From: Lingula anatina
Lineage: Eukaryota; Animalia; Brachiopoda
Direction: 5' to 3'
Length of the DNA stretch: 64,000 bases
Assembly: GCA_051362555.1 (NCBI GenBank)
Contig: CM120640.1
Location: 41,022,788 to 41,086,787, forward strand
Shown: positions 5,619 to 40,170 of the stretch, one piece after another
Layout of the letters: the number at the start of each line of letters is the position of its first letter
Numbering within the stretch: the stretch's first letter is position 1
Notes under the pieces: model-generated
What the model saw: the letters and a program-made list of their open reading frames with translations, nothing else
Database searches by the model: none
Told to the model about the DNA's origin: nothing
Made by a program: the position numbers and the translations under genes

Positions 5619-14900
<9,282 letters not shown>

Positions 14901-17904: not shown

Positions 17905-17928
17905 TGTGTGTGTGTGTGTGTGTGTGTG
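17905..17928. repeat. (TG)n microsatellite
   Basis: Uninterrupted tgtgtg run near the left edge of the transposon-fragment block. Confidence 0.9.
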
Positions 17929-18327
17929 AGTACACACGTGTGTGCATGCATGCATATTGATACTGTTCAGTAGGACAAATTTCCTTCACTGATATCTGCT
18001 ACATGATACAAACACAGCTCCTTGTACAACAAGGTATATTGTGTTAGCTGAACTCAGTGCTCATCCAAGGAGCAGCCAATAACATTCTCCCTGACATTGT
18101 CAATATACCTGGGATTTGAGTAAAAGCATCCAATGCTTCATGAGTTTTAAGGAATAATACCAGGTTTGAAATGTGTTTAAATACAACACATTGTTTAGCC
18201 ACTTGGAGCCATCTTACCTATCAATTTTCAGTATTCAGATTATGAGCTCTTCTATGAAAGGCTGTCGACTTTAAAAGAATTGAAAGTTTTTCTGCTTCAT
18301 GATCTAACACCGGAAGGTTGCTAGCCA

Positions 18328-18530
18328 GTGATGATTGAAACCACTACAACTCAGGCAGATTGTGCAGGATGGTTTCAAGAGAGGTGTCTGCTAATAACAG
18401 CATCAGTGGCACATGAAGCAGTAAAGATATGGAAGGCCATCAATGAGCAGGGAGTCACTGGCGGTATACACATGAGAGTGCCAAAATTACTCTGGAAACA
18501 TATTTGGGGTTTAGATGCTGTCACCACATG
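18328..18530 (+). pseudogene. YqaJ/lambda-exonuclease-like fragment (DNA transposon accessory ORF)
   Basis: IETTTTQADCAGWFQERCLLITASVAHE matches the T..Q..s..Wf.eR..rITAS start of eukaryotic YqaJ domains. Confidence 0.65.
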
Positions 18531-19247
18531 TTCCTATTGTCCTCTCGGGACATTCGGGATAAAGCGAGATTACGAGGCCTTCTAGAGTCATTACGTGGTT
18601 AACCTTCAAAGGAGTCGGCCGTAAAACACAGCTACCTACAGGCAGTTTATTGCTACGATACAAGTGGGTTATTATAGTCTACAAGAATTTCAGAGAATTA
18701 CAGGGTATACTGTAAACACCAGTGCCTGTATTGTTTGAAAAACAATACTTTGACGGTTTCCTGTGATTTTTTTTAGGCACGTGATATCACGAAGAGATAT
18801 TACATTAAGGTGAAATACCCTTTAATCACATGTGCCTCTACTGTTTGTGAAACAATACGCTGACATTTTAAACGTAAGGCACGTAATATCACGTGGTGAT
18901 ATTACTTTAATTTGAAACACCTATAACAAATTACGAAGACTTGTAAGCCAAACTGTATTGAAACAAGTTGAAACAAGAATGGCTGAGTTTGTGCAAGAAA
19001 ACGTCGGTCTCACAGAGAGCATTCTGGAGAAAATGGAACGGGTTTTCGAAACGCAGATTCTCTCGTAGAAGAGAGGATAGAGGCTGGTCCACATGGCGAG
19101 ACGAGTGGTAAACGCACCCAAACCAGCAACAACCCGTATCAGCCAAAAAGTAAAAAGAAAAAAGCTGAAAACTCGTATTCCGCGGAGACGGATTTTTACG
19201 AGATAGCAGACTATCAAAAAACAGAGATTGATGCAAAATTAGATCGT

Positions 19248-19600
19248 ATGGAAAATATGATCAACAACATGGGGAAAGTTGTTCAATCCCTGTCTGATAA
19301 ATTTCACCATAGGGAAAACGTCCTCGTAGAAGGCGATTCACGGGAAAGCGACACAGACAGCGATTCGAGTAGTGACCTGGTATCTGGGGAATGCAGCCGC
19401 GCCCTAGAACTAAAGAAGACCTCGGATACCGTTACTGAGGACGTTACGCAAGCCGATAAGCTGCTGAATCGTCTTGAAGGTGATATTGGCTGCAGAGCCC
19501 ACTGGACAGCCAATCATCCATACCAAACTCATGAAAAATCTGGATAAGATCTTATCAGGCGGTCTTTCTTTTGACATTGCAGAAGAGAAAAGCATACAAT
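19248..19600 (+). pseudogene. DIRS-like retrotransposon gag/ORF1 fragment, frameshifted
   Basis: Acidic Ser-rich stretch then DKLLNRLEGDI/(shift)AAEPTGQPIIHTKLMKNLDKILSGGL, resembling DIRS gag. Confidence 0.5.
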
Positions 19601-19604
19601 TCAA

Positions 19605-19720
19605 GAATGTGCAACATGACTCTTCAATGGAAAAACAGATATGGGAAGTCTATGCCAATATTAGCAATGTAAAGGTCAATAAATCTGGCCTTTGGGTTGA
19701 CCAAGCAGTGCCAGAGCTTG
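19605..19720 (+). pseudogene. Second YqaJ-like fragment
   Basis: HDSSMEKQIWEVYANISNVKVNKSGLWVDQAVPEL resembles the YqaJ hG..mE..A...Y......V..sGL.v....p.L segment. Confidence 0.55.
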
Positions 19721-19799
19721 CCCTCAACTACAGTACAAAGAGTGGGCGTGAAGGCTGTGAGAAAGGGGACTTCTGATTTGCAAGGAATCGTTAAATCTC

Positions 19800-19936
19800 A
19801 TAGAGTGAGGAAAAGTTTTCAGCAGTGCTTTCATTGCAACAGTACCAGACACGATGCCGACATGTACTATTACAAAGATGAACAATGTTACAAATGTAGC
19901 AAAATTGGTCACTGTCAGAGAGCATGTTTGCGTTAA
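19800..19936 (+). pseudogene. Gypsy LTR gag double zinc-knuckle fragment
   Basis: CFHCNSTRHDADMYYYKDEQCYKCSKIGHCQRAC: tandem knuckles, the second a perfect CX2CX4HX4C. Confidence 0.8.
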
Positions 19937-20264
19937 CAAGGTCAGGGAGTTCACCAGTTAGATACAACACTTGCTGAAGTGGGCATGTAGATCAATGGTG
20001 GAAAGATTTGTACTCTAATGCAAAGAAGGACCTCTCCAACAAAAAGCGACCCAAGACAGGAAGAGGAAAAGAGTCAGTGGAAGGTCCTAACACGGATATA
20101 GTTCTAGACATAGTTGGTGAAAATGCTCCTTCATAGACAGGAATAATTGTAGGAGGAAAAAGTTGTGTAATTGTGCCCGAGACATCTCGCTTGTTTTATA
20201 CAGAAATTATTGTAAAAACTATAATTTCTTTTTTAAAGCAATATATTGTTATATGGTAGTCATT

Positions 20265-20625
20265 TCTATCAGCTACATCTCTTTGATAAGATTATTGTTC
20301 CGATTTTATTGTATGGATGCGAAGTATGGGGATTTGGAAATTTAGAAATCATAGAAAAGGTACACTTGAAATTTTGTAGATATTTATTGAATTTAAAAAC
20401 CAGCACGCCCAAGATAATGATATATGGTGACTTAGGTAGAATGCCATCAAGTATCGCTATAAAAGGAAGAATTGTATCATTCTGGACAAATTTGATCACA
20501 GGTAAACAAAGAAAATACTTATATATATTATATAATTTAAAACTCATTTATAACAAATTTATGCAGGGACGTGAATGTAAGTGGATGGACAATCTGAAAT
20601 CCATTCTGGATAACTGTGGTTTGGA
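20265..20625 (+). pseudogene. Non-LTR (LINE) ORF2 fragment, region C-terminal to RT
   Basis: LFDKIIVPILLYGCEVWG..IEKVHLKFCRYLLNLKTSTPKIMIYGDLGRMP..RIVSFW, the typical post-RT segment of LINE ORF2. Confidence 0.88.
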
Positions 20626-21854
20626 TACGTTTGGATAACTGTGGTTTAAGTAATATATTTAGCACACAGATGTCTGTAACAAGAAATTAGGAAAGACTTG
20701 GTTGTAGAAGTATTAATGCAGCATACTTTTAATGTTTTGACATCAGAGCCTAGAAATATAGCTTCAAAAGCAATGAAAATCAAGGTACATTTCAGTTTCA
20801 GATATGACACTACTAATGTGATGCTGGACTCCTCAGAAATCACTACAGCCAATAACACTGAGCCAGTGCCCCCTGAAAGGATCAAATCTGCTACAAAGTC
20901 TTATTTGAAAGTTTAATTTTCCATTGGGGACATAGTAGCAATTGGACTTGAAACCGAGTCATTTGACGCTGCAACAGTCTTAGAGGTGCAAAACGATGAA
21001 GTGAGTGTCAAATATCTTAAGAAAAGAGGTCAAGTCCTGACAGAATGGTTGATTGAGGGAATGGACTATTTAGGCAAATGTCACATCAACTCAGTTGTAT
21101 CTTGTTTTCAAAATAAAAATTACATTTCTAAAGAGTTTGCATTTGAAAAAGGACTTTCAGAGACAGAAAAGAGACCTTGACACACGTATTTCACAAAATA
21201 ACTGCAAGGTTAGTGACTAAGTGTATTTAATAGATAGCACTCCTTTCAGTGAGAATGCAGTTTTACTGTGTTTTATGAAAAACATTTTGTTGTGCCCTGA
21301 CATCATTTCTCCTAGCTTACAATATATATATATATAAAAAATCAAAAAGTCATTATTTTTGTATTCATATCAATAAAACCTTTTTCAAATCTTTTAAAAA
21401 TAACTATTTTCTTTAAATTTTTTGGAAATTTTTGTAGACCTTTTACTGTGATATTGTGTCAAACAGAAAAAAGAGGGCATAGTGAAAACCAACTTCCAAT
21501 TATGACACTGCACACATGATAGATGTATATATTCTTAAATTTCATAACTGGGCAGCCTGGAGCATATGCCAACTATGCTGACCTTCAGGAGGAAGGAGAA
21601 GAATTAGAAGATGTGTGGTTCTGAACCACATGTCCCATGGCCATGTCTGAACAGTCTGAAACCATTGTTGAAGCAACGCCTCTTGTGATTACATGGCAAG
21701 GTGGGGCATACATAAAGTGTGTCTAAAGTCATTCCATGAAAGGGTAGAGGACTTGGGGTCATTATTTATATTTACAACTTTTATTTTAATGTTTTGCAAT
21801 GTCCTACTGGTGTTTTGGCAATTTTCAGGCTGTTGATGGAGGCACTGAGCCAGC

Positions 21855-22035
21855 AGGATATTTTTGAAGGACCAAATAATGCATTGGTTTTCAGACATAA
21901 CACATTGGAAAGTCGCATCAGGGGGCTTTCTTCAAAAGTGGACAACTAGTGGGCTGGAGCCTACTGCATGGTGGGCCTGGTTTCCCCAGACTCCACCCTC
22001 TGCTATTCAAGTGTGTCACCACAAACAACAGGTTA
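21855..22035 (+). pseudogene. HECT E3 ligase (G2E3-like) fragment, N-lobe
   Basis: DIFEGPNNALVFRHN.. then, after a frameshift, WSLLHGGPGFPRLHPLLF. Confidence 0.65.
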
Positions 22036-22504
22036 ACTACGTGTAGCCCCAACAAGCTGGAGACGTATTTCTTTGCTTTCTCCTGAGGAAAAGACAAATT
22101 AATGCAGGTAATATCTGCGTGTAAAATAAAATTTAAACAAATAAAATGGGTCTCTCAGGTTTTCCCATTTTTTTAGTGTTAAATGTATCGACACATATGT
22201 CACAGGTGATATTCAGATTTTTTGGGATAGACATCCCCCGCCCTCCCCAAAGGGAAATCCCACTTGGCATCTGCCCAAAGGGAATTGCTGGTCCTTCAAG
22301 GACACTGTTGATCCTGAACTTGGGCTGTTAAGCAAGATCAGTAAATGGATGATTCTTTCATTTACTGATATTCTACTTCATCACTGTCAAGTTCATTACA
22401 GAACCACATGAGATAGCGCAGGCGTATCGGACTTCAGTGCGCAACCAACTGGACTTCCAGACGGACGCATAACAATTCTTCCTACGCGGTTTTTTCATTT
22501 TTTG

Positions 22505-22810
22505 ATGGAAACCTTCAATATTTCTTCTCAAGAAGAAGACGCCCTACTGGGGTCAGGGGTGGGTATTACCCCCTCTGAATCGAGAAACATTTTCTCAGCG
22601 ATTGATGGCCTTAAGGGCACTATGGAGGCTGTTGCCTCCAATATACAGAAAATGGGCGAGGTTTGGGCGACAATGGCAGCCGAAAAGAAACCCGCCAAAC
22701 GCTTTGCGACGGTCTTTGAAGAAGGAGAGGAAGGAGATGACTCCTCCTGCTCCGATATTGACAGTCCTATGGACCATCAGGACGAAGACGACGTTGCGAG
22801 CCTCAAATGA
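22505..22810 (+). pseudogene. DIRS-like gag N-terminal fragment
   Basis: METFNISSQEEDALL..coiled segment..acidic tract; same style as 19248 but not a copy of it. Confidence 0.4.
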
Positions 22811-23151
22811 TTGGCAGAAAAAATGGATGGCAATTTCCAAAGGTTATCAAAGTCCTAATATTGGGATATTAGGTTAACAGCACAAACATAGGAATCCTTG
22901 AATTAGAATCTTTTCTCCTTTGACATATATTTATTGATTGATTTTTAAAACTTTTTAATTCTACTTATGTCTTTACCTTATGTTGTTTGAAATCATAAAA
23001 ACAACTTTCAAATAACCATAGATTTCCTTTTATGACATAATAGCAATATATGTTTATGTCCTACCACATTCAATTTTCAGCATTTTGTATTTACTTTAAA
23101 GTGCTGCATGTACGTAAATTTAATTTTTCCCTAAATATTTACCAATTACAG

Positions 23152-23297
23152 ATACACTGCAGTGCTGATAGAACGGAATTCGATAGAACTGTACAACAAC
23201 ATTTAGATTGGTTGTGTGACCAAGGCATATTTAAGTTCCCTTATGAAGAAAAAGAAATGATGATATTCCAGCTTTTGCTGAATATCATATATTACAA
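23152..23297 (+). pseudogene. Isolated exon, probable HECT mid-region fragment
   Basis: AG/GTAAGA-bounded open exon IHCSADRTEFDRTVQQHLDWLCDQGIFKFPYEEKEMMIFQLLLNIIYY. Confidence 0.4.
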
Positions 23298-23574
23298 GTA
23301 AGATTATATACGTGAACCAACACTTTAAGCAACCAATTCATTTCCTATTGCATATGTCCTATAATGATATCACTTAACAGGGAGACATGTTTGAACAAGT
23401 TTCTTTTTGGCATAGTGCGTCTTTGTCAAATGTGATACATGACACGTACATTTTTCAGGGGAAATGAAGTAAACACAACCAAAATATTAAAGATATTTAG
23501 CAGCAACTTTTTGGAGGAGCGTAGTATTGACACAGTAACAACGGGTCTGGAGGAACCTCCAACTAGGAATAACA

Positions 23575-23725
23575 GAAATTTTCATTAGCAGATATTCGAT
23601 TTGGGAAGACTCTCTGGAGCAGTGTCTGGCTGCTGATAACTTACGGCAACCACTCTGTGTCCTTCCATTGGGAGGAAACCATTGACAGTGGAGGGCCAAG
23701 GAGAGAATACCTTCCGCTAATGGTA
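23575..23725 (+). pseudogene. HECT fragment, domain start
   Basis: IFISRYSIWEDSL..QPLCV/(shift)EETIDSGGPRREYLPLMV matches the GE..D.GGP.RE motif. Confidence 0.75.
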
Positions 23726-24310
23726 TTCGAAACAAAATGCAGATTGCTGGATAATAGTCGGTTTTACGGGTCCCTATTTAATTGTTAATAACTCGACCAA
23801 TTTTGGCCCGATTTTCATAAATTTGGTATCGTTAGACTCTACAAACCTTTCTATTGACATGGAATACAATTATTATGTCTTTAATATGTTTTTAATGATG
23901 TTTTTAATGAGTTATTACAGGTACTCTACCAAAGGCCACTTCCCGATAGAAGAGATGCCAGCGCCATCTGTCGGCCACATATTGTAGCACGAGGCTCCCA
24001 ATGGGGGTGCATCAAAGTGAAATTGCACAATTTTTAGTACTCGGGGGGAAATAAAAAGAAAAGGAAAAGACAAAATTAAGAAAAAATAGGCAAATTAAAA
24101 GAAACACACGCTTTACAAATATTAAGATATTTTCGTGATAACAAGATTTACTGTGAAAATTCTGCAAATAAAATATGAAATTGGGTAAATTAAGGTTTCC
24201 CATTATTATCACATTGATGAAATGTAATTCATAAAGTTGATGTACAGATCTCTACATCAATGCTGTACAACAGAGTTATATAATTTGAAAAAAAAAAATA
24301 TTTAAAAAAA

Positions 24311-27300
24311 CTAGAGGATCAGAGAGGCGATACCGCCTCCAAATATTGTACCACCAGCTGGAGCAAACGCATTCGTATAGACCCCCACATACACAAAATA
24401 AGGGACACAGCCACCAGTTTTGTGCTTGACAAGCTGTAAAAATGCAATCAACAAGAATTTTTAACTATTGCAAAAAATATATATGGTACAATCAAATTTA
24501 AGTTCTTCGTAAGGTAGGTCAAGGGTCAATTTCAAGGTCACAGTAAATTGCCAGTATATGACTTCCTATTCAAGTTCAAGAGTAACCATGGACCTATCTC
24601 TGTCAAGTTTGAAGTTAAAAGAGAAAGAAATAAGAAGAGTTCAGTTCATGATAAAAAGTAGGTCAAAGGTCAATTTCAAGGTCACACTTAGATTGCCAGT
24701 ATAGGACTTCTTATTCAACTTCAATAGTAACTATGGACCTATCTCAGCCAGTTTTGGAGATAAAAGGGAAGCAAAATTTGCAAAATTCAGTTCATGGTGA
24801 AAAGTAGGTCAAAGGTCAATTTCAAGGTCACATTTAGATTGCCAGTATATGACTTCCTATTCAAGTTCAATAGTAACTATGGACCTATCTCTGCCAGTTT
24901 TGGAGATAAAAGGGAAGCAAAATTTGCAAAGTTCAGTTTATGGTGAAAAGTAGGACAAAGGTCAATTTTAATGTCACATTTATAATGCCAGTATATGACT
25001 TCCTATTCAAGTTCAATAGTAACTACGGACCTATCTCAGCCAGTTTTGGAGATAAAAGGAAAGCAAAATTTGCAAAATTCAGTTCATGGTGTAAAGTAGG
25101 TCAAAGGTCAATTTTAAGGTCACATTTAGATTGCCAGTATATGACTTCCTTTTCAAGTTCAATAGTAACTATGGACCTATCTCAGCCAGTTTTGGAGATA
25201 AAAGGGAAGCAAAATTTGCAAAATTCAGTTCATGGTGTAAAGTAGGTCAAAGGTCAATTTTAAGGTCACATTTAGATTGCCAGTATATGACTTCCTTTTC
25301 AAGTTCAATAGTAACTATGGACCTATCTCTGCCAGTTTTGGAGATAAAAGGACAGAAAAGTTTGCAAAGTTCAGTTCATGGTGAAAAGTAGGTCAAAGGT
25401 CAATTTCAAGGTCACATTTAGATTGCCAGTATATGACTTCCTATTCAAGTTCAATAGTAACTATGGACCTATCTCTGCCAGTTTTGGAGATAAAAGGGAA
25501 GCAAAATTTGCAAAGTTCAGTTTATGGTGAAAAGTAGGTCAAAGGTCAATTTTAAGGTCACATTTGGATTGCCAGTATATGACTTCCTATTCAAGTTCAA
25601 TAGTAACTACAGACCTATCTCAGCCAGTTTTGAAGATAAAAGGAAAGCAAAATTTGCAAAATTCAGTTCATGGTGTAAAGTAGGTCAAAGGTCAATTTTA
25701 AGGTCACATTTAGATTGCCAGTATATGACTTCCTTTTCAAGTTCAATAGTAACTATAGACCTATCTCTGCCAGTTTTGGAGATAAAAGGGAAGAAAAATT
25801 TGCAAAGTTCAGTTCATGGTGAAAAGTAGGTCAAAGGTCAATTTTAAGGTCACATTTAGATTGCCAGTATATGACTTCCTATTCAAGTTCAATAGTAACT
25901 ACAGACCTATCTCAGCCAGTTTTGGAGATAAAAGGAAAGCAAATTTTGCAAAATTCAGTTCATGGTGAAAAGTAGGTCAAAGGTCAATTTTAAGGTCACA
26001 TTTAGATTGCCAGTATATGACTTCCTATTCAAGTTCAATAGTAACTACGGACCTATCTCAGCCAGTTTTGGAGATAAAAGGAAAGCAAAATTTGCAAAAT
26101 TCAGTTCATGGTTTAAAGTAGGTCAAAGGTCAATTTTAAGGTCACATTTAGATTGCCAGTATATGACTTCCTATTCAAGTTCAATAGTAACTACGGACCT
26201 ATCTCTGCCAGTTTTGGAGATAAAAGGGAAGAAAAATTTGCAAAGTAGGTCAAAGGTCAATTTCAAGGTCATAGTAAGATTGCCAGTATATGACTTCCTA
26301 TTCAACTTCAATAGTAACTATGGACCTATCTCTGCCAGTTTTGGAGATATAAGGGACTAGATGTTATAATTTTGGAGTTACCATAATGTGCCTTAAATTT
26401 CGTACAGAAAAAATTAATTAAAATAAAGAAAATGTCATTTTGGTCAAAATTCTTGAAATAGGAGGTGCTCTGAAGTTTCAGAAGTTCAAATTTGATGAAA
26501 TAATGTCATTTTTGAACACAAGTTGTCTGCTTTGCCAAGCCTTATGTTTTATTTTTCCAGAGTTCAAAATTTATTATCCATTACCGTACTGCACATTTTG
26601 CTTTTACCACCAATATGTACTTTTTGATACAGCGTAACTCGAAAACCGTATGGAATACAAAAAAACCGAGACCACCTCCAGTGTTGGGCTTTACATGCTC
26701 TACAAAATGCAAAAAAGAATGGGTCTCTAGCATTAACGGTTCCCGAATTAGAGACAGTTTTCAGTTTCGGTATCTTATGGCCGCTACTCCCGTGAAAATG
26801 CACCGATTGACCCCAAATTCATGGAGATGAAAGATGACCTGAAGGGTAACACTTTCCAATAATATTATTGGTTAAGTCTGTGTGGTGTCTGAATAACAGG
26901 GCAAAAAAAATTTTTTTCGTAAAAAATTTCATTTTTTTGAAAATTTTGGCCCATTTGACCTTGAAGTAGAGGTCAAAGGTCAAATCCAAGGGTATATTTG
27001 AAATCTACACATATGACTTTTGGAAAGCCGTCTATAGAAATTTTTCCCATAACTCCTTCCGTAGGGTAGATAATTAGCATTTAATTTTGCCATTTTTAGA
27101 CAAGGGTGCATTGCAATGAGTGCCACACCCAGACCCCAATACCGACAAAGCCCAAATTTTACGTGGAACGAGTTGAGATTATAGGTGATCTAAATCCATG
27201 AGATGGGTACGGGGGCCCTTACCGTCTAGGAGGAGAAGCGGTAACGGTAGCCGTCCGGCGGAGCCGGCGGAGCCAACGGAGCCGGCGGAGCCGGCGGAAC

Positions 27301-27360
27301 GATCCGGACGGGACCGAAACCATGTGTACCGCCAGCGCTAACGCTGGTGGTACAATTATA
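24311..27360 (-). mobile_element. Non-autonomous Helentron-type element (HINE/DINE-1-like) with central satellite array
   Basis: Subterminal inverted repeats attgtaccaccagc (24345-24358) / gctggtggtacaat (27343-27356); hairpin 27325-27354; GC-rich microsatellite (gccggcgga)n ~27250-27310; 3' palindrome gaggcg-atac-cgcctc 24324-24339; CTAG end at 24311 next to a T-run on the - strand. Confidence 0.85.
24514..26360. repeat. Tandem satellite, 13 units of 146 bp
   Basis: Unit starts at 24514, 24658, 24804, 24950, 25096, 25242, 25388, 25534, 25680, 25826, 25972, 26118, 26245; first unit 144 bp, penultimate has a 19-bp deletion, last is partial. Confidence 0.97.
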
Positions 27361-28619: not shown

Positions 28620-28800
28620 ATGTCCTTCAACGAGATTGTCCAGGCAACACACAATCACGCCTCTGCTGTGCAGTTTTTGCGCGACCATCTCATCCTTCGT
28701 CGGGCACCAACTACATGTCAAACCTGTGGGGGTCCGATGACCGAAGTGAAAAAAGAAGGTGGCACGGTCTGGCGGTGCCCCACCCACAAGGGCAGGAAAA
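28620..28800 (+). pseudogene. Merlin/IS1595-like transposase N-terminal zinc ribbon fragment
   Basis: AVQFLRDHLILRRAPTTCQTCGGPM..GGTVWRCPTHKG. Confidence 0.7.
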
Positions 28801-31044: not shown

Positions 31045-31175
31045 GCAGAAAAAAATACACTATCACAGAATTAGAGTGTTTGGCCATGGTTGAAGGTGTG
31101 AAAGCTCACCACCCATATTTACAAGGCAGTGCTTTTACCATCCTGACAGATCACAGTGCTATGCAATGGTTAAAC
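31045..31175 (+). pseudogene. Gypsy RNase H fragment
   Basis: KYTITELECLAMVEGVKAHHPYLQGSAFTILTDHSAMQWL. Confidence 0.9.
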
Positions 31176-32112
31176 AACAGTGTGGTGTTTTCTGTCACTG
31201 CCAAGAGCATCCTGGGATGTCTGCTGCGCATATGGGGACTGCAAAGGGGTGCGCACATATAAAGTAACAGCATACCATGTGACGCCCTAGATCCCAGCAG
31301 ATCTCAAGCTGTTCAGAAGCACGCTCTGCTCTCCAGCCTGACGATAGAGACAAAGACAAGCACAGTGCCCCACTTAAACAGAAGGACCAGGCAATGCTCT
31401 CATTAAGTACCAGAAGCGTATGTTACTGCTATTAGAATAGAGTAAGACACTTTATTGGCGTCGAGGTACACGCAACCTCTTAGCATAAAGCTGTTGCAAG
31501 CCTTTAGGTAATTTCTCCTTTGTTAGACACCATATTGAAAATTTTGGCAGGCGGGGGTCAAGTTTTTGAAACTTCATGGTAAGTTCTTAACTTTCGGCTG
31601 TAAGGTTACCGCGTAGGGAACGGGGAGTATTCCTTTTTGGTTTGTTTACTTTATCATCTAGTAAAACAGCACTTATAGAGAAATTGCCTTTTTGTAAGGG
31701 AGACGTTCTCATACATCTGTTTAAGGCACATGCAACAGCAATATTGAACTAAGCTTCATATTTTTTGCACTATTAACCATTTGTTGTCGCATTTCAATTT
31801 TTTGCCTTTTCTGGTACAATAAGATTTAATAGTTGGTTGTTTTACTTGCACAGGTTTAATTTAAATTTTTTATTCCTGGAATATTGATATTATTTGTTTA
31901 AACGATTGTACTGGGATAAACTTAATCACTTATCTGTAAATTATTAGTTTCATAAAAATTTGATTCTAGACTTATAGATTTAGTGAAAATTTATTTTCCT
32001 CTTTTTGAATTTCCATTGGTGCGTTTTTTTTTCTAAATCTTTCCGGTGTTGAGTGCCAGTTAATAGCTTGCTATTTTTTCTGATTAATTGTGTTAGATCT
32101 TACATCAACACA

Positions 32113-32706
32113 ATGGCAACTTCATCCCAGTTGGTAGATGTCAATTCTGCTACATTGGAAGATTTAGTTGATGTACCTGGAATTGGTCAAAAGTGTGCGG
32201 AAAAAATTTTGTCTGTCAGAGCAAGGGGTATACGCCTTGACCAAAACATTTTACAACAACTTTTTGGCCAAACAATTTTATCCAAAGTTATGCCCAATCT
32301 TCAATTTGAGTCCTCTCATACAAAAAGTCAGGGTGGGGCAAAACCTAAAACAAAAAGGGACACCTCTACTTCAGCAGACACTTCGAAGCATGCTAAATCT
32401 TTGGATCTTGGACGTGATTTGTTTAGGCGCTCTCTCTTTTTTCCAGCGGAGGGAGAACCTATTAGAACACTCAATGATGGTAATGAAATTTTGGAATATC
32501 AACAGAAGATTTCTGATTTAAAAATTAAACAAGCAGAAATCAAACAAAAAAGTAAGGAAGTGCAGAAAGCAGCTTTCATATCTCCAAAAACATACAGGAG
32601 ATTGTCTACATTATCACATTCAGAGAAATCTAATAGGTCACGAGAAAGTCATGGTGTCAAATCTGTTTCACAGAAAAGATCAAACCCAGCACACCAAGGC
32701 TCATGA
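32113..32706 (+). pseudogene. ORF with N-terminal ComEA-like helix-hairpin-helix; probable retroelement gag 5' part
   Basis: MATSSQLVDVNSATLEDLVDVPGIGQKCAEKILSVR (HhH: vN.At.eeL..lPGIG...A..I), then a basic/coiled region; 197 aa. Confidence 0.6.
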
Positions 32707-33189
32707 GATGGTCAACAATGCTGCAGGAGTATGATTACAAGGCGCAATACAAACCTGGATGGAGCCACCCAGCAAACAGTCTCTCACAAAGAGAATAAGC
32801 ACAGCAACAGCAGGATACAGGCCAGGTCACTGTCAATGATACCTCAGAGCAAAAAAATGGAACCACACCAGTAAAGCAGGAAGCCACCGAAACACACAGA
32901 GCAAGGGGCAAAGACACACAATGAACAACAAGAGACAGTCACAGAAACAGCATAAGTACCCAGCCAGTGCACAGTGAAGTTGTCTTCTTAGCCTTTTTTT
33001 TTTTGCATATCAGTAAAATAGCATGATATTAACGATGAATTTTGTATGTTTTATTAAATTAAGTGTGAGTTCTTCTTCATAGAGAGAGAAGCAGCCCAGG
33101 CGCTGCAGCAGGCACAGATGGTTGAGATCTCCTCAGATGGAGATGAAATGTAGTGATTAGATAACAATTCTTTGAGCATAGTGTCAGAG

Positions 33190-33455
33190 TCAAAGATATG
33201 TTGCAAATCTTGTGACTCTCAAAACATCATCTATTTGATAAGATGTAAACAATGCCATCATATGTACGTCGGAGAAACGAGCCAGAAATTAAAAGACAGA
33301 ATTAGACAACACTGCTGCGCTATAAATAACAAAAACCTCTTCATGCCAGTGGGACAACACAACAAAATGCTGAACCACTCAGCTAAAGACATCACTGTCA
33401 CCGTCTTCGAAGGAAACTTAAACGCCACTAGGCAAAGACGGATAGCCGAACAGGT
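33190..33455 (+). pseudogene. Penelope-like GIY-YIG endonuclease fragment
   Basis: CDSQNIIYLIRCKQCHHMYVGETSQKLKDRIRQH..PVGQH..NHS. Confidence 0.9.
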
Positions 33456-33540
33456 AGTGAGTATGATGCAAATGCCTCAGAATAAATTGTTATAAATGCC
33501 AAAGATTATAATTAATAGCGTACTATTTCTTTTTCAACAG

Positions 33541-33775
33541 GTAGAAGAAAGGGCATTAATTAAGGGGATGTGCTGGCTTTCATAACTGGTTTGAGAGAAA
33601 TCCCCTCACTTGGATTTTCCAATGAACCCAGACTAACCTTCTCGTTGACAGGTGACTCAATGTTGCCCACAGCTAGTACCTGCATAATGGAATTGGAGGG
33701 GAGAGGCCCCTCCAGGAACACAATTTTAACTTATGGGATTTGGCATTTTCCAACTCATATTTTGGCTTATGTTAG
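33541..33775 (+). pseudogene. HECT C-lobe fragment with catalytic Cys
   Basis: AG acceptor; DVLAFITGLREIPSLGF..LPTASTC..; after a shift FNLWDLAFSNSYFGLC*. Confidence 0.85.
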
Positions 33776-33829
33776 TTGAAGATTACAGACATAGTTTGAC
33801 AAATGAATAAAAGCTTGACCTGTTGTCTT

Positions 33830-34331
33830 CAAAGGGGCAAGAAGCGAGCCAATGGCTCTACAAGTATAACCGCTATATGGCTGCAAAAGGGGCAAATGAT
33901 GAAGCCAACATACAGTGGTTCCCAATGTCCCTAAAAGGAGCAGCAGAAGACTGGTTCGCCAATCTACCAGTTGAGATAAAGACAAATAAAGAAAGACTCC
34001 AACAGGTCTCAGACACCATTACTGCCCAAAGGGCCAGGCAGGTTGGCAGGCAGCTGCTACTCTATTTGCCAAAAAGCAAGGGGAAACAGAAAACACTTAA
34101 GACTTCATAGCTTCTATGCAGAGACTGGGAGACAAAGCCCCTATCCCACAGGCACAAACAATCCAAACCATAATAGCAGGATTACAGTCTAATATGAGGG
34201 CTATTGTGTTACAGAGAGACCCACGATCCATGTCTGAGCTAGAGGCATCAACAAGAATAGCTGAAGCCACCAGTAAAATCTGCACAAGAGAGCAGCCTGA
34301 TGGCTATGATAGAAACTCTTACATAAAGTGA
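33830..34331 (+). pseudogene. Gypsy gag (capsid) fragment, frameshifted
   Basis: FKGQEASQWLYKY..FPMSLKGAAEDWFANL..; IIAGLQSNMRAIVLQRDPRSMSELEASTRIAE. Confidence 0.75.
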
Positions 34332-34759
34332 ACACGCTGACCACAATACAAGTGGAACCACATAAACGCTGTCAGCCAGCCGAGGGACGGGAGCAGATGG
34401 GAGCATTCAGATAGGGATGAAAATTTCACAACACAAACTGAACATAACGTGGAAGGTCAGATCACCATGATCCTTGCCGCTGCCCCCCAAAAAACTGACT
34501 TAACTCCCTTCAGTGGTGCCAAGCCTGGCAAATCTTTTCGGCCATTTATCTTCAAAAATTTCCTGACCAAGCCATCCCCCTTTCGGTACATGCCCACAGG
34601 GTTATCACCATGTTTCCAAACAAAATAGCAAATTGGAGGGTATATGATGAGCGGTTCTGACTAAAAAGAGTTAGCGAGGGTATCAAGTGGGAGGAAGAGG
34701 ACCCTGTAGTGTATGGACACTCCCTGGGAACCCCAAAATTAGATCATTTTCATCCTTCC

Positions 34760-35175
34760 CGTCATCCTTTAATCAAGGCTTTTATAAGGCCATCTTGCCT
34801 AGATATCAACTTGTGTGGGATGGCAATCTTGTGCTGCAGTATCTTAAACAATTGGTACCTAATGAAAGTTTATCATTAAAGCAGCTATCTTGAATACTGA
34901 TGATGTTAGTAGCATTAGTTACTGGACAGCATGGACAATCTATCCACTAGATGGACTTGGCAGATATGAACACACTGAAAAGTTTGGAAATGAAGTCACT
35001 TATGTTTAGTGCACATATTTCCGCAAATATTAAGGCAAGGAAATTGTTGTAGGTTGTTTATTAGTGTATTTTAACCATACAAGGCAGTGACAAAAGACAT
35101 GATCAGTAGATGAATCAAGAGTGTTATGGTTAAGGCAGGTATAGATGCGATTGTTTTTAAACTTCATAGTATTAC
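34760..35175 (+). pseudogene. DIRS tyrosine recombinase fragment
   Basis: LPRYQLVWDGNLVLQYLKQLVPNESLSLKQLS*ILMMLVALVTGQ..; later PYKAVTKDMISR*IKSVMVKAGIDAIVFKLHS. Confidence 0.88.
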
Positions 35176-35641
35176 CAGAAACCAATTGAGACTGTTGTAT
35201 TAAATTCTCACTTAAAGGCTGTCTCAGTGGGTTAAACCCTTAATATAGCAAGAAAACAAATTTTCCTGGAAACCTCACCAGTTTTCTTATAATGGCCAAG
35301 GTATATCCTATCCAAAACTGTTCAGAAAATGAAGCTACCTAAAACCATTTTTTAAATCCCATTAATTTATTTAACCCTATAGCATTCATAACAGCCGCGT
35401 AAACCCCCCCATCCCCCCCGTTTATTTACAATGGCCATTCACGGCCTTAGTATACAGCTTCAACTGCTGTACCCATAGCAACAACAAATCTCACTTAGAT
35501 ATTGCAACAAACAATATGAATAACCTTTAACCCTCTAGGCAGCCATTTGCATTCTACAGATACGATTTTGTTGAGATTTTTCCAAGTTATTATGATTTTT
35601 TGCGTTCAAAGCTTTTCGTTCAAACTTCCTGTTTTAGCGAA

Positions 35642-36182
35642 ATGGAGAGTAGTGATAGTGAGTCAAGTTTTGACGGTTTTACGCTTGAAAATCTGCAAGA
35701 AGTGACTTTGAGAGCTGGTAGAAAGACATGGGATGACAATGAATCTGACATCAATGTCTCCCGATGTCAGCAGTGATGAAAGTTTGGCTGGTGACACTGA
35801 CTCTGAGGCTGAATACCTGCGCCCGCTGTTAGGAGAGTGGGGTACCATGTTGGAAAACTTAGTTTTGCCAAATTTTACTGAAGTTTCTGGACCAAAACAC
35901 ACGTTGCCAGCTGATGCAAAGGTCTTAGATTATCTTAATTTATTCTTGCCTCGTGTTTTTTTTTTTTTTTGACTGTTGCAGAGGAAACGCAGAGATTCAA
36001 TATGACGACCAATCAGTGCTGATGAGATAAGTGCGTTTTTTGGAATAAACATTATGATGGGCATAAAACATTATCCAAGAATATGGTGCTACTGGAGCAC
36101 TGATCCTAAGTTAGGAGATCCGTATACAAGTTCTATAATGCCCAAAACAAGGTTTTTAAAGCTCAGTCAGTATCTGCACATC
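35642..36182 (+). pseudogene. piggyBac (PGBD4-like) transposase 5' fragment
   Basis: MESSDSESSFDGF..; LPADAKVLDYLNLFLP; EISAFFGINIMMGIKHYPRIWCYWSTDP..IMPKTRFLKLSQYLH. Confidence 0.9.
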
Positions 36183-36597
36183 CTTGGTGTCTCCTAATTT
36201 TTGTATCGTCCGTACCCCCCCCCCACAAGGGGGGCAGCAGCAAGGATCATGGTGAGACATTTTGCAAAAAATAATATATGCTACTCTTTGCATTCAAAAT
36301 GAACAATATTGCTTCCAATATATTGCCAAATATAGCTTATTGCAAAATAATAGATTGTATATGGATTAATATTCTATGGATTAATGTATATGATATATTT
36401 TGAGGGGGTACGAACACTACAATACATGCATAATTAACAGAGGTATATTTATAATACTCTCAGTGGATGAAGTATCAAACATGGATGACAATGAACAAAA
36501 GCCAAATAGGAAAAGAAAAGGGAAACCTGAAATTTTTACTGTCAGCAAAAATAATTTGAAAAAAAAAAAAAAAAAAAAACATAACATTTTTTTACTT

Positions 36598-36809
36598 CAG
36601 ATGTATGCATAAGAATGGTGGGCATCTATGGTACAACCCAGAGATGTGTGGAAGATTCATCACATGTTGTTACATCCTGCATAACTTTTGTCAAGATAAA
36701 AACGACCCACACCAAAGATCCTGATATAGATGCAAGTGTAAATGACGTGTTTGTTGGCCCAGTCCTTACCATTGGTCACAGGACAAGAGAAGAACTAATC
36801 AGGAATTAG
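36598..36809 (+). pseudogene. PIF/Harbinger (HARBI1-like) transposase C-terminal fragment
   Basis: After an AG acceptor: CMHKNGGHLWYNPEMCGRFITCCYILHNFC..GHRTREELIRN. Confidence 0.8.
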
Positions 36810-36997
36810 GGCCTCCACCACCAACACTGCAACTTCATTGAACATATGAACTCAGCCAGGTCAAGAGTACAAATGTACATAAAGTCAATAGAACTGACGT
36901 GAACTTTAAAGGAAAAATACACTGTCTTGGTATTCGAAAAAAACATGATAGAATAGTTGTGGTTAAAAAATTGGGCAAAAAATAAGATAAAGACTAT

Positions 36998-38960
36998 AGA
37001 GCGTTCCCGATACGTAATTAATGAGCCGCCACAATATTGGGGGACACACACACAAATCCAAGATGGCGGTAGTGCCGGTGGTGAAGTATAAGTGACTGCG
37101 GGTAAAAAACACAAAATTCACAAGTTTATCTGTTGGCAGCAAAGAAAATCAATTAATACCGTATTCTGAAGGACTCCAAGAGGCGGAGAAAGTATGGTAT
37201 GAAGAGAAGTTGGCTTATCTGAAAGGGCAAGACCCGTATGAAATAACAGAGTGAAGCTGCGATGTGGAATTACTACCTAGAGTTACTTACATAGACATAG
37301 TCAACTATCTTCTGTTCAAACCAAGCCCATACACACAAGACCAGTTAAAATGTTATAAGGGTTTGGATGCTTACAACCAGTTTGTGTTAGGATGGGTCCG
37401 GGATGTGGCGTCGGTAGAAATCAACGAAAAACGTGGAACAACAGTCAAGGTAAGAAAATTTAAGTTGTGAACAACATAACTGTATATCAAGTGTATTGAC
37501 TGATGGTCATTAGGACTTGTTTTTCTATTTCACGATCTTAATAGATGACAGCTCTATGATTAGGCACCGAAGCTAAGTTTGAATGCAGTGTTTTTATTAA
37601 AACCAGAGGTATTCGGTAAAATTGAAATGAAAATGTCTATCACAGTCTGCCAACTAATTCTCTTATCTAACACATGGGTGACATGCATGTGCATTATCCT
37701 TTTCTTTTCAATTTTTTTAAGAAAAAGGGTCCAATAGCACTGAATTTATTTCTACACACATGAGAATGCTTGCTTAAGCAAGTGTTTGTATAGCAGCTGA
37801 GAATGAGACTTCCTTCTTAGTTTTCAAACTAGATATTATCTTACATAGGAAACAGTTCTTAAGATTCTGGTTATTGGTGTCACTGACAACATATAAAATG
37901 GGTTAAGTAGCATTTGAGCAAAAGTGATGTCTTGTGAAAAACAGGTATCTCTCCAGGTAATGTAATTACAAGTAGTTACCTTTAAGTCAAATAGCAGTCA
38001 CCTTTTATCAGCTTGGTACATTTATACTAGTAGTAGCCTGTGACACCATTTGACAAAAGAGTATATAATTATGTGGTATCACAGTTTTGCACGTGCAGTG
38101 AACCTTGATCCATAAAATCAACCATGTTTATTAATTAATCCATTTTTCTTTTAGGTTTTGCACTCTCAGCACCTTAACGACAGTCCTCTGCGTCCATGGG
38201 TTTTAGCTGACCAGGAAGGTGAAGTAATTACAGGGCACTGCAACTGAATGGCAGGACTTGGTGAGACCTGTACCCATGTTGCAGCTCTCCTATTTTTGTG
38301 GAAGCTGCAGTTAAGATCAGAGATGCCAAAACTGTAACACAAGAGAAGGCATATTGGAAGTTACCAACACCTTTTTCAAGTGTCAAGTACAGTAAGCTTA
38401 AGGACCTTGATTTCACTTCTGCATCCTCCTTTAAAAAAAACTTTGACACTTCTTTATGCACAGACAGGCCAGTAACTCCACCAACCCCAAACCAAAACAG
38501 ATCCCAGCCGTCAACACTACCTCCCACACAAGAAAGATTGGACAGATTTTTCAATGCTCTCAGAAAGGTACCATCAAAGCCGGCTATTCTTGCCCATGTC
38601 CCAGAATATTGTTAAAATTATGTGCCCTTGTTATTAAAAGGAGATTTCCCTATAGTGCCGACAGAGTTGAAGGACAAGGAAACTTTTGGCTATGCATATA
38701 ATAATTTAAAGGGGAATACAAGTCTCTGGGGACCTAAATTCAATAAAATCCCCCCCCCCCCCTCTTCTCTCTAGATCTGCCCATCACGTTTTACCCACTG
38801 TAAGCGCACTGTAATTACCTCCCAAATTTAGGCTTACGCTTACAGTGGGTAAAACATGATGGGCAGATCTAGAGAGAAGAGGGGGGTCGGATTTTATTGA
38901 ATTTTGGTCCTCAGAGATTTGTATTCCGTTTTAATTTATCACTGTGAAGCATACTGACAG
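36998..38960 (+). mobile_element. Truncated ISL2EU-like DNA transposon end with SWIM-containing accessory ORF
   Basis: Possible terminus at|AGAGCGTT (36998), CAAGATGGCGG motif; YEEKL..DPY..LPRVTYIDIVNYL..SPYT..KGLDAYNQFVLGWV | intron 37450-38154 | VLHSQ..PWV..HCN*MAGLGETCTHVAALLF (SWIM)..TQEKAYW. Confidence 0.75.
38710..38930. mobile_element. Palindromic MITE with TTAA target duplication (Kolobok-type ends)
   Basis: ttaa|AGGGGAATAC..GTATTCCGTT|ttaa; ~100-bp near-perfect inverted arms; removing it restores ..YNNLIYHCE.. in the host ORF. Confidence 0.88.
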
Positions 38961-39029
38961 AGTTGGCGATATCATGTCTCGCAGGTGACAAACACGTTAT
39001 CCTGACAATGAAATTGACTTTCTGATGTC

Positions 39030-39320
39030 ATTACCTCAGTCGGCATAACGACATAGGCCAAATGCTCGTAGATGAAGCACAAAACAACTGGTGGGTGATA
39101 CAAGAACCGCAACTTAGGGACCCCAGGGGAACACCCTAATTCTGGATCTTATCTTAATCAAGGACTCAAAAGCAGTAGTGGTTGACCCTACTATTCGGGT
39201 CGAAGACCGTGACAAGCTAGAGAAGAGAAGGAAATATCTAGTATGTGCATGAGATAGAGCGTATCACTGGAACAACTGCCATTGAAGTGTATGGGCTTGC
39301 AATAGGAGCCAGTGGGGGGG
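39030..39320 (+). pseudogene. R2/NeSL-like non-LTR restriction-like endonuclease fragment
   Basis: SRHNDIGQML..WVIQEPQL../(shift)DLILIKDSKAVVVDPTIRVE..KRRKY..GLAIGA.G. Confidence 0.75.
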
Positions 39321-39954
39321 GGGGGGGGGGTGCGCCTCGAGCACCCAAGCCCTCGAGTCTCTAGATATATATGGAGCATGCACTTTGCACAGCATCTTGC
39401 TGTTTAGGCCATGCTCAGGACTTTAGATGTATTCTCACTCTATAGTGGGGATAGGTTTGCAGAGAGAGCCCTGGACTAAACAGACCGGACAGTCCCTACT
39501 CCAGTCATATTACAAGACACGTTTTCCATTCATTCTCTCGGTATTAGTGCAAAGGTCCGAAGACACAGACCCTCAGGTTGCCTGCATCGTTTTCTCCATC
39601 TATTTTTACAAGAGGGTCAGATTTGTGCGGAAAATTTAACAGTAATATCTACAATCTTGCTCTTATTTGTATTATTCACTTTCAATCAATATTCTCAATT
39701 TTTCAGTGTATGGCATGTACACTTTAAGAATGAAAGATGTCCAGATGAATCAGAGCATAAATAGTAAGATTCGTACCTCAAAAAGAGCAGCAAAGAATGT
39801 GCATATCTTGCAAACTTGCCCTAAATATGCAGGAAGGTTCTTGCAAAGTTGCCACAAATTTGCAGAAAAACCATTTATTAATGTTGTGTATTTTTACTTC
39901 TATTTTTTATCGTTTCTGAAGTAGACACCTGGTGAATGTCAGGAAGAGCAGGAG

Positions 39955-40170
39955 CCATCAAGCCAGTTATTGTGAAGCTATGCAACTCGGATGTAAAGTA
40001 GGAAATAATTATGAAAAAACATTAAATAAAGTCAGCTGTATAACACCATGATGATGTTAAAAAGCAAAACTTGATGCTCAAAAATAACTTTGACAAAGAT
40101 GAAGGTGCATAGTACTATAATTGTAATGCTTTTACACAATCAACAAATGGAGCTAATGGAGCTTTTTGTC
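39955..40170 (+). pseudogene. Degenerate LINE ORF1 (L1-type) fragment
   Basis: AIKPVIVKLCNSDVK*EIIMKK resembles the RPIIVKF..K..i motif; several stops. Confidence 0.4.

What the first reader, a model, noticed from the sequence alone, without database searches (positions are those of the whole stretch)
18240..40170. 22-kb strand-uniform archive of transposon fragments: candidate uni-strand piRNA cluster between COE and EXD2
Seen: about 20 short (mostly 0.1-0.6 kb) coding scraps from unrelated elements (YqaJ x2, DIRS gag x2 and recombinase, Gypsy gag x2 and RNase H, LINE ORF2, Penelope GIY-YIG, R2-like endonuclease, Merlin, hAT, piggyBac, Harbinger, ISL2EU-like, HECT x4, HhH ORF), all readable on +. 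I found no transposon protein among the - strand ORFs, and the flanking genes contain only MITEs. With random orientation, 18 independent fragments on one strand has probability 2 x 0.5^18, about 1e-5. Established: strong antisense bias of fragmented transposons marks uni-strand piRNA clusters such as Drosophila flamenco. Inference: a - strand precursor here would yield antisense piRNAs against both retro- and DNA transposons, an unusually broad memory locus in ordinary gene-rich DNA. Caveat: reading by eye favours the + strand.
Basis: partly seen in the sequence, partly recalled or inferred. Interest (0 to 1): 0.92.

Follow-up and report, generated by a model that had tools for sequence, protein, structure and literature searches.

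The report
Antisense-transcribed transposon archive behind EXD2
Just behind the EXD2 gene of a marine invertebrate lies about 22 kb of broken jumping-gene pieces whose identifiable coding parts all face one way and whose scarce RNA comes mostly from the opposite strand, so it likely serves as a template for transposon-silencing small RNAs (piRNAs), although the small RNAs themselves could not be tested.

Summary
The strand bias is real; many of the labels are unconfirmed. Pfam hit 5 of 144 plus-strand ORFs and 0 of 171 minus-strand ORFs. Two more plus-strand pieces were confirmed by other searches. A strand-blind coding model called 17 plus and 1 minus segment, partly through base skew. YqaJ x2, DIRS, Merlin, Harbinger and two HECT labels found no tool support.

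New evidence is stranded RNA-seq. Over 17.1-24.1 kb, 98% of read depth in four runs is minus-strand RNA (about 110 reads), switching to plus at the end of COE. The right half is weaker (72%, 72%, 49%). EXD2 (minus) points into the block, and its 3' UTR covers the last 0.9 kb. Two high-copy non-coding HINE-like repeats sit in opposite orientations.

Best reading: a uni-strand piRNA source, probably fed by read-through from EXD2 (0.6). No small-RNA, DNA-run or genome data were available, so piRNA production and copy number are untested. The architecture is known from a slug, mosquitoes and mammals, and this scan noted it in eight findings on other genomes. New member of a known kind.

The parts
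17200..39300 (-). Zone of low-level minus-strand RNA, from the end of the EXD2 3' UTR to the 3' end of COE; candidate piRNA precursor. Both ends approximate; continuity as one molecule is inferred.
   Evidence: stranded runs X1, X2, X4, X5, X6; strand switch between bins 16708-17141 and 17142-17575; 13 of 16 bins in 17142-24085 have minus-strand reads in at least one run.
39300..45290 (-). EXD2-like gene (3'-5' exonuclease) with a 3' UTR of about 1.7 kb; likely upstream host gene of the read-through RNA
   Evidence: Pfam DNA_pol_A_exo1; five CT..AC joints with 21-39 reads in X1, depth 13-29 over 39273-41273 falling to 0.5 beyond.
7566..17100 (+). COE gene, 3' part and probable 3' extension; convergent left boundary (start given is the first exon hit by Pfam, not the gene start)
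   Evidence: Pfam COE1_DBD, TIG, COE1_HLH; plus-strand RNA depth 8.69 against 0.93 minus over 11500-17141.
18240..18582 (+).
   Evidence: No hit.
18993..19770 (+). Coding-like stretch (reader: DIRS gag followed by YqaJ); family unconfirmed
   Evidence: Highest-scoring segment of the coding model; no family hit.
19793..19933 (+). Double CCHC knuckle, gag-like (weak)
   Evidence: PDB nucleocapsid hits from E 0.028; top hit a CHY finger at E 0.015.
20237..20635 (+). Protein-like piece; C-terminal part of a LINE ORF2 by recall
   Evidence: Atlas 0.97 to unnamed eukaryotic clusters, recognition 2125; no relevant PDB hit.
22412..22834 (+). Coding-like stretch (reader: DIRS gag); family unconfirmed
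   Evidence: Coding model; no family hit.
23573..23785 (+). HECT N-lobe motif piece (weak)
   Evidence: PDB AREL1 HECT, E 0.27.
24309..27356 (-). High-copy non-coding HINE-like element: subterminal inverted repeat with adjacent complement, microsatellite, about 12 copies of a 146-bp unit (24514-26356), 3' palindrome and CTAG
   Evidence: TRF; loose read ends with varied flanks at 24304-24309 and 27356; end structures; layout as in PMC7492417 (passages).
28578..28802 (+). Zinc-ribbon piece (reader: Merlin N-terminus); family unconfirmed
   Evidence: Pfam zinc ribbons E 0.003-0.007.
28858..29930 (+). hAT-type transposase piece (DUF4371/ZMYM1-FAM200-like), apparently with two GT-AG introns
   Evidence: Atlas 0.96, 207 of 256 features shared, on 28858-29220; intron ends read by eye.
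30003..30575 (+). Second high-copy non-coding HINE-like element, opposite in orientation to the first; right end approximate
   Evidence: Depth 200-430 and loose ends at 30003; end structures.
31011..31200 (+). LTR-retrotransposon RNase H piece
   Evidence: Pfam RT_RNaseH E 8.3e-13.
32114..32706 (+). ORF with N-terminal helix-hairpin-helix motif
   Evidence: Pfam HHH_3 E 1.7e-7; link to a transposon is recalled, not shown.
33157..33495 (+). GIY-YIG endonuclease piece (Penelope-type by recall)
   Evidence: Pfam GIY-YIG E 4e-8.
33534..33776 (+). HECT C-terminal piece
   Evidence: Pfam HECT E 5.4e-7; Lingula protein P0011, tblastn E 4e-22.
33811..34535 (+). Coding-like stretch (reader: Gypsy gag); family unconfirmed
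   Evidence: Coding model; no hit in Pfam or PDB.
35527..36195 (+). piggyBac 5' piece: TTAA followed by CCC, acidic N-terminus, start of the DDE domain
   Evidence: Pfam DDE_Tnp_1_7 E 1.1e-13; TTAACCC at 35527, with a second at 35371. The TTAA/CCC rule is recalled.
37060..38708 (+). First 300 codons of a YqaJ-domain protein gene (ISL2EU-type second ORF), with stops, a frameshift and an intact 705-bp GT-AG intron (37450-38154)
   Evidence: 10 homologs at 57-74% identity; tblastn E 1e-47 and 6.5e-33 to P0002, both exon alignments meeting at residue 127; P0002 has Pfam YqaJ; PMC4482050 passages.
38701..38939 (.). MITE-like inverted repeat cutting off the YqaJ-protein piece
   Evidence: Inverted arms 85-98% complementary.
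38990..39250 (+). R2-like restriction-enzyme-type endonuclease piece (weak)
   Evidence: The only 2 PDB hits at E<=1 are both R2 proteins, E 0.49 and 0.65.

Best explanation
The block is a pile of decayed transposon pieces facing the plus strand and carrying low-level minus-strand RNA, and it likely works as a uni-strand piRNA source whose precursor is probably made by read-through from EXD2. Shown: strand-uniform coding pieces; EXD2 points into the block and its 3' UTR overlaps it; minus-strand RNA is seen as far as about 17.2-17.6 kb, where COE's plus-strand RNA ends. Shown for some pieces: they arrived as DNA (intact intron; piggyBac end at TTAA). Inferred: elements inserted one by one and were trimmed by deletion, and antisense copies were kept because they give useful guides. 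Inferred: polymerase passes the EXD2 3' end in some tissues and makes one RNA of about 22 kb. Untested: this RNA is cut into 25-31 nt, 1U, phased piRNAs that guide PIWI to sense transcripts of retro- and DNA transposons. Within this explanation I put read-through against an own promoter near 39 kb at about 60:40.
For: Pfam 5:0 and coding model 17:1. Minus-strand RNA depth 36.6 against 0.56 plus over 17142-24085 in four stranded runs (X6 18.2:0, X5 13.3:0, X1 2.3:0.19, X2 2.8:0.37), with the opposite bias over COE. Minus reads also fall on 17142-18009, outside the listed pieces. In the right part X6 has more minus than plus depth in 12 of 16 bins, the reverse in 1. Block signal does not follow EXD2 level (X1: 21-39 junction reads, block mean 0.4; X6: 0-2 junction reads, block mean 1.05), as expected of regulated read-through. 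The same layout is documented with small RNAs in a slug and in mouse, human and hamster (PMC11615739) and in mosquitoes (10.1101/2022.08.22.504762). PIWI1 and PIWI2 occur in every lophotrochozoan phylum examined (PMC11114477).
Against: No small RNA was seen or testable. Depth is very low (about 110 reads on the left, my conversion; 12 of 18.2 depth units in X6 come from one bin beside a T-rich stretch). Run X1 shows no bias in the right part (49%), where plus-strand reads occur over the piggyBac, YqaJ-protein and MITE bins at 90% identity. Reads differ from the window at many sites (two haplotypes at 22.4-22.8 kb), so some may come from sister loci. AATAAA is not depleted on the minus strand (22 seen, 18.8 expected). 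The lack of proportion to EXD2 fits an own promoter equally well. No read or contig links EXD2 to the block. The two HINE-like repeats are not strand-uniform. About half the labels have no tool support.
Confidence: 0.6

Rival explanations
1. The region is a long read-through or non-coding transcript that yields no special small RNAs; sense-oriented insertions were purged because they disturb the transcript, leaving antisense debris.
For: Low-level minus-strand RNA without any small-RNA evidence. Antisense bias of insertions inside transcription units is established knowledge (recalled, mammalian introns).
Against: It does not explain the density of coding pieces: my by-eye list has 26 pieces covering 9.2 kb, and no transposon domain was hit in the 20 flank ORFs I scanned (a selection, not all). 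PMC11615739 found no general link between transposon content and read-through; antisense enrichment marked the productive piRNA loci. Poly(A) hexamers are not purged from the transcribed strand.
Confidence: 0.22
2. The block is one large capturing element (Helitron/Helentron type or another) that gathered fragments in its own orientation and exists in several dispersed copies.
For: Short same-strand pieces with introns are what rolling-circle capture leaves (PMC7492417 introduction). HINE-like elements are abundant in this genome. Reads show more than one haplotype.
Against: A scan of 16.5-41.5 kb for a GC-rich hairpin before CTRR-T found one site, the HINE's own end at 24314. No long terminal repeat bounds the block. 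The cargo is transposon-like, and the piggyBac piece keeps its own TTAA-CCC end. The RNA is antisense to the cargo.
Confidence: 0.08
3. This locus is a silent relic of a former cluster; the minus-strand reads come from related antisense fragments in active clusters elsewhere.
For: Reads were accepted at 90-95% identity and show several differences from the window; gaps in coverage at 19.7-21.5 kb.
Against: Minus reads fall on 13 of 16 bins, including stretches between pieces and 17142-18009, and the strand switch sits at the COE boundary.
Confidence: 0.07
4. Ordinary intergenic transposon debris; the one-strand pattern is chance or a product of reading the plus strand by eye.
For: Only 5 pieces pass a strand-blind family search (p=0.06); many labels are unconfirmed; base skew alone gives a plus lean in the coding model.
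Against: 0 of 171 minus ORFs hit; observed coding segments exceed all 25 skew-preserving resamples; the RNA strand is independent of reading bias and is the predicted one.
Confidence: 0.03

Closest known systems
Uni-strand piRNA clusters of the slug Arion vulgaris (PMC11615739; passages read)
   Same: A top cluster yields piRNAs from the minus strand over densely packed plus-strand transposon fragments; lophotrochozoan host.
   Different: There the small RNAs were sequenced; here only long RNA strand and sequence layout are shown. The passage read gives no upstream gene for the slug locus.
Mammalian piRNA clusters downstream of genes, piC-DoG (PMC11615739; passages read)
   Same: Dense antisense fragments directly behind a gene's last exon; long form made in some cell types only.
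   Different: Mostly LINE-1 and ERV content; read-through shown by RNA-seq; here retro- and DNA-transposon pieces and HECT pieces, with read-through inferred.
Mosquito core piRNA clusters made by read-through (10.1101/2022.08.22.504762; abstract and section 7 read)
   Same: Intergenic, starts at the end of an expressed same-strand gene, antisense content, seen in oligo-dT RNA-seq.
   Different: Enriched for non-retroviral viral elements, none identified here; lack of an own promoter was shown by chromatin data, not available here.
Drosophila flamenco and flam-like clusters (PMC10643416; passages read)
   Same: One-strand arrangement of transposon remains, antisense to the transcript.
   Different: Large, pericentromeric, strand bias driven by Gypsy elements, expressed in follicle cells; this locus is 22 kb, lies between ordinary genes and is not Gypsy-dominated.
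piRNA clusters of Lymnaea stagnalis and Crassostrea gigas (PMC6128900; passages read) and of other molluscs (PMC11067994; passages read)
   Same: Enriched for Gypsy and DNA transposons such as Kolobok and hAT; sizes 2.7-17 kb in the second study.
   Different: The passages read do not report fragment orientation or read-through.
HINE, non-autonomous Helentrons (PMC7492417; passages read)
   Same: The two high-copy inserts have subTIR plus complement, microsatellite, central repeats and 3' palindrome.
   Different: Applies to two passengers only, not to the block.

Membership tests
Uni-strand piRNA cluster | Produces 24-32 nt, 1U-biased, phased, PIWI-bound small RNAs that map uniquely | not testable with these tools
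   All 9 listed runs are RNA-Seq; no small-RNA run was listed.
Uni-strand piRNA cluster | Long precursor transcribed from one strand | tested here: met
   98% minus-strand depth over 17142-24085 in 4 runs; 72%, 72%, 49% in the right part at looser identity. Low depth; a single molecule is not shown.
Uni-strand piRNA cluster | Transposon fragments densely packed and antisense to the precursor | tested here: met
   Pfam 5:0, coding model 17:1; 7 firm pieces all plus. Two non-coding HINE-like repeats are one each way.
Uni-strand piRNA cluster | A locus of the genome, not a dispersed multi-copy element | not testable with these tools
   No genome held; no DNA run listed. End scan negative.
Read-through cluster (piC-DoG / mosquito core cluster) | Starts at the 3' end of an expressed gene on the same strand | tested here: met
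   EXD2 spliced minus-strand reads and 3' UTR to about 39.3 kb.
Read-through cluster (piC-DoG / mosquito core cluster) | Transcript continuous with the upstream gene; no own promoter | tested here: inconclusive
   Short reads only; block signal not proportional to EXD2 between runs; AATAAA not depleted.
flamenco / flam-like | Strand bias driven by Gypsy LTR elements in a large pericentromeric locus | tested here: not met
   Of 7 firm pieces one is an LTR-element RNase H; locus is 22 kb between genes. Chromosomal position not testable.
Helitron-type capturing element (whole block) | 3' hairpin followed by CTRR at the block's end | tested here: not met
   One site in 16.5-41.5 kb, belonging to the HINE; simple scan, decayed ends would be missed.
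HINE (24309-27356) | subTIR with complement and microsatellite at 5' end, central tandem repeats, subTIR and palindrome at 3' end, high copy number | tested here: met
   against the layout in PMC7492417; target site not tested against empty sites.

The most novel reading that the evidence does not exclude
EXD2, a DNA-repair housekeeping gene, has a tissue-switched 22-kb 3' extension that reads past some twenty poly(A) signals and serves as a compact antisense index of many mobile-element classes, plus pieces of a HECT ligase family. If the host is the brachiopod Lingula, as other notes of this scan say, this would be a read-through piRNA cluster in a phylum where I found none described, and would make read-through an old bilaterian way of building such loci.
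Probability: 0.25. Interest if true: 0.65.

Novelty: new member of a known kind. Interest (0 to 1): 0.45.

Why it matters
It shows that a candidate piRNA source can be picked from sequence alone and that its predicted precursor strand holds up in independent RNA-seq. The locus is small, bounded by two identifiable genes and partly unique, so three questions become directly testable in a lophotrochozoan: whether piRNA precursors are made by read-through, how the switch at the host gene's 3' end is controlled, and how fast cluster content turns over at a fixed syntenic position. The architecture itself is not new.

Tried and rejected
No genome is held for this window, so copy number and sister loci were not searched. 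Run search: no RNA holder listed; 9 same-species-label raw RNA runs offered, 6 laid (X1, X2, X4, X5, X6, X7), no small-RNA or DNA run listed. X7 is unstranded (55% in the block) and was used only as a control.

PHROGs: 0 hits in 40 plus and 42 minus ORFs. NCBIfam: nothing relevant in 15 pieces. Pfam on 40 short plus-strand read-through frames: nothing new. Homolog search with 38265-38612: none at E<=0.001, although the piece later aligned to P0002 at E 1e-47, which shows how insensitive these searches are for short pieces. Atlas on 18325-18582: no usable hit. PDB on 21901-22083, 20237-20635 and 33811-34107: nothing relevant. P0002 and P0006 do not match the two claimed YqaJ pieces; P0011 does not match the other HECT pieces.

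Splice-signal and poly(A)-signal strand counts in the block were not significant (best: GTRAGT 9:2, p=0.065). Synteny: 2 metagenome loci with an EXD2 relative (51% identity, at most 4.7-5.4 kb downstream) showed no credible match to COE or the block; too distant and short to inform. No look-alike stretch in other windows of the scan (only 16000-27999 was looked up). A literature search for a HECT-transposon link found nothing relevant in 12 of 36 listed, so the HECT pieces are not counted as transposon proteins. Rejected: plus-strand read-through from COE as the block's transcript (strand data); 24330-24440, which I first read as a LINE piece, is the end of the HINE.

Full report
Setting. The window is AT-rich animal DNA (GC about 0.36). 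Pfam places COE domains on the plus strand between 7.6 and 13.4 kb, a 3'-5' exonuclease on the minus strand at 44.6-44.9 kb, an MRP-S26 domain on plus at 48.6 kb and a protein kinase on minus at 50.7-52.5 kb. COE and the EXD2-like gene are therefore convergent, with the block between their 3' ends. Named protein hits come from Lingula, bivalves and a limpet, which points to a lophotrochozoan. Other AI notes on this genome call it the brachiopod Lingula, one a probable annelid; I did not test this.

Strand of the coding pieces. I listed all stop-to-stop ORFs of 35 aa or more overlapping 17.8-40.6 kb, leaving out those inside the satellite: 144 plus, 171 minus. Pfam hit 5 plus ORFs at E<1e-5: RT_RNaseH, HHH_3, GIY-YIG, HECT and DDE_Tnp_1_7. 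It hit none of the 171 minus ORFs at E<1e-3; the best was 0.0046. On its own 5:0 gives p=0.06. A strand-symmetric model scoring amino-acid composition and stops called 17 plus segments (5,682 bp) and 1 minus (150 bp) with the high-copy repeats removed, p=1.4e-4 (first version). It assigned the flanking genes mostly correctly (EXD2 4 of 4, MRPS26-like 3 of 3, kinase 6 of 9, COE 5 of 8). Resampled sequence keeping local skew gave 7.8 plus and 1.6 minus on average, at most 13 plus in 25 runs. So the observed coding content exceeds the null, but the strand ratio partly reflects the block's A-over-T skew (+0.071 against +0.015 and +0.008 in the flanks).

Identity of the pieces. Beyond the five Pfam hits, 37255-37449 found 10 homologs at 57-74% identity. 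Two are full-length YqaJ-domain proteins, and P0002 aligns to 37096-38708 at E 1e-47 and 6.5e-33, with stops and one frameshift. The alignments of the two exons meet at residue 127 across a 705-bp GT-AG intron, so this piece was copied as DNA. ISL2EU elements carry such a second ORF (PMC4482050, passages); the window piece does not include the YqaJ domain itself. 28858-29220 resembles DUF4371/ZMYM1-FAM200 hAT-derived proteins (0.96). The piggyBac piece begins with TTAA then CCC at 35527, the recalled signature of a real insertion end; TTAACC[C/T] occurs 8 times in the window, so this is suggestive only. Weak support exists for an R2 endonuclease, a CCHC knuckle and a second HECT piece. The labels YqaJ x2, DIRS gag and recombinase, Harbinger, Merlin, the Gypsy gag at 33811 and two HECT pieces look plausible to me by recalled motifs but got no tool support. 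These follow-up searches were made on plus-strand candidates only.

Non-coding passengers. The 146-bp array (11.9 copies, 93% match) lies inside an element whose ends are marked by hundreds of reads with varied flanks at 24304-24309 and 27356. Its ends carry a subterminal repeat with complement, a microsatellite, a palindrome and CTAG, the HINE layout described in oyster (PMC7492417, passages). A second such element starts at 30003 and has the opposite orientation. Uniformity therefore holds for coding pieces, not for these inserts.

RNA. The run search listed no holder but offered nine raw RNA-seq runs under the same species label. In X1, X4 and X6 the spliced EXD2 reads have the first mate on plus and the plus-strand gene at 46 kb the reverse, so these are stranded and 'first mate on plus' means minus-strand RNA; X7 is unstranded. 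X2 and X5 belong to the same two studies and behave alike. Over 11500-24490 at 95% identity, COE-side bins (11500-17141) hold plus-strand depth 8.69 against 0.93 minus. Over 17142-24085 the sums are 36.6 minus against 0.56 plus, or 98%, about 110 reads by my conversion, with 13 of 16 bins covered in some run; the last bin, on the HINE, was left out. One bin, 22350-22783, supplies 11.9 of X6's 18.2; molecules pile up at 22513 beside a T-rich stretch, which fits internal oligo-dT priming on a longer minus-strand RNA (inference). Over 27934-39272 at 90% identity, leaving out the HINE bin, the minus share is 72% in X6, 72% in X4 and 49% in X1. Plus-strand depth there is concentrated on the piggyBac, YqaJ-protein and MITE bins and may come from related elements elsewhere; I could not separate this from a true plus-strand signal. 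In X1 EXD2 has 21-39 reads per joint and a 3' UTR at depth 13-29 reaching about 39.3 kb, then a fall to 0.5; the block averages 0.4. In X6 EXD2 has 0-2 reads per joint and the block averages 1.05. The block's RNA is thus not proportional to EXD2 mRNA. Each run was read to only 6-25% of its size, tissues are not given, and reads differ from the window at many sites, so uniqueness is not proven.

Mechanism. The simplest account is a uni-strand piRNA source. Elements inserted behind EXD2 and decayed; those antisense to the minus-strand RNA were kept. In some tissues polymerase likely runs past the EXD2 3' end to about 17.2-17.6 kb, where five poly(A)-like hexamers lie on the minus strand at 17111-17451 in AT-rich DNA (weak). 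The RNA would be cut into antisense piRNAs. Against passive read-through, AATAAA is not depleted on the minus strand (22 seen, 18.8 expected), so termination would have to be suppressed, or the block has its own promoter near 39 kb. Neither small RNAs nor a transcript linking EXD2 to the block were seen. A whole-block rolling-circle element is disfavoured: the only hairpin-plus-CTRR end in 16.5-41.5 kb belongs to the HINE and no terminal repeat bounds the block, but copy number is untested.

Comparison and novelty. A slug cluster is described in nearly the same terms: piRNAs from the minus strand over densely packed plus-strand transposon fragments; the same paper describes mammalian clusters downstream of genes made by cell-type-specific read-through (PMC11615739, passages). 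Mosquito core clusters start at the end of an upstream gene and lack their own promoter (10.1101/2022.08.22.504762, abstract and section 7). Snail clusters are enriched for Gypsy, Kolobok and hAT (PMC6128900, passages), so breadth across retro- and DNA transposons is not unusual in this part of the tree. flam-like loci differ in being large and Gypsy-driven (PMC10643416, passages). Capitella lacks large clusters (PMC8915122, passages). A search for piRNA with brachiopod or Lingula listed 12 of 16 papers, none on brachiopod clusters by title or abstract start; a search for EXD2 with piRNA cluster or readthrough listed 10 of 43, none containing EXD2. Supplements were not read and could list such loci. 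This scan has noted the same pattern in eight findings on other genomes; these are unchecked notes and not support. Verdict: a real, transcribed, strand-uniform block; probably a new member of a known kind; interest 0.45.

Noticed in passing
window 24309-27356 and 30003-30575: RNA reads on the two HINE-like repeats are strongly one-sided and follow the element's own direction (X1: 1339 against 11 on the first, 17 against 416 on the second; same in X4, X6). For repeats carried passively in random orientation about 50:50 would be expected; an internal promoter or biased oligo-dT priming could explain it.
   Followed up: no
window 39940-40120: A decayed plus-strand piece resembling the C-terminus of an L1/Tx1-type ORF1 (recalled motif, no Pfam hit) lies antisense inside the EXD2 3' UTR seen in X1.
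   Followed up: partly
window 19990-20160: Short plus-strand piece resembling the Myb/SANT accessory protein of Harbinger elements by eye; no tool hit.
   Followed up: partly
window 20680-21180, 27865-28200, 34661-34880, 36600-36810: Further plus-strand protein-like stretches with no family hit in Pfam, PHROGs or NCBIfam.
   Followed up: partly
window 45290-46260: EXD2 and the MRPS26-like gene are head to head about 1 kb apart with a high-copy repeat (about 45340-45530) between them; a shared bidirectional promoter is possible.
   Followed up: no
window 35229-35540: Three piggyBac-like end motifs within 300 bp (GGGTTAA at 35229, TTAACCC at 35371 and 35527); possibly nested or duplicated ends.
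   Followed up: no
window 40475-40690, 43802-43979, 47655-47992, 53124-53373, 55875-56154: MITE-like inverted repeats; the last two are related (about 70% identity). The first lies in the EXD2 3' UTR.
   Followed up: no
window 33534-33776 and protein P0011: The Lingula protein matches the HECT piece and also its tail beyond the domain, which suggests a family of related HECT-bearing sequences and not a single host gene.
   Followed up: partly
window 50600-58950: Minus-strand protein kinase gene (PK_Tyr_Ser-Thr hits), KSR/Raf-like by eye.
   Followed up: no
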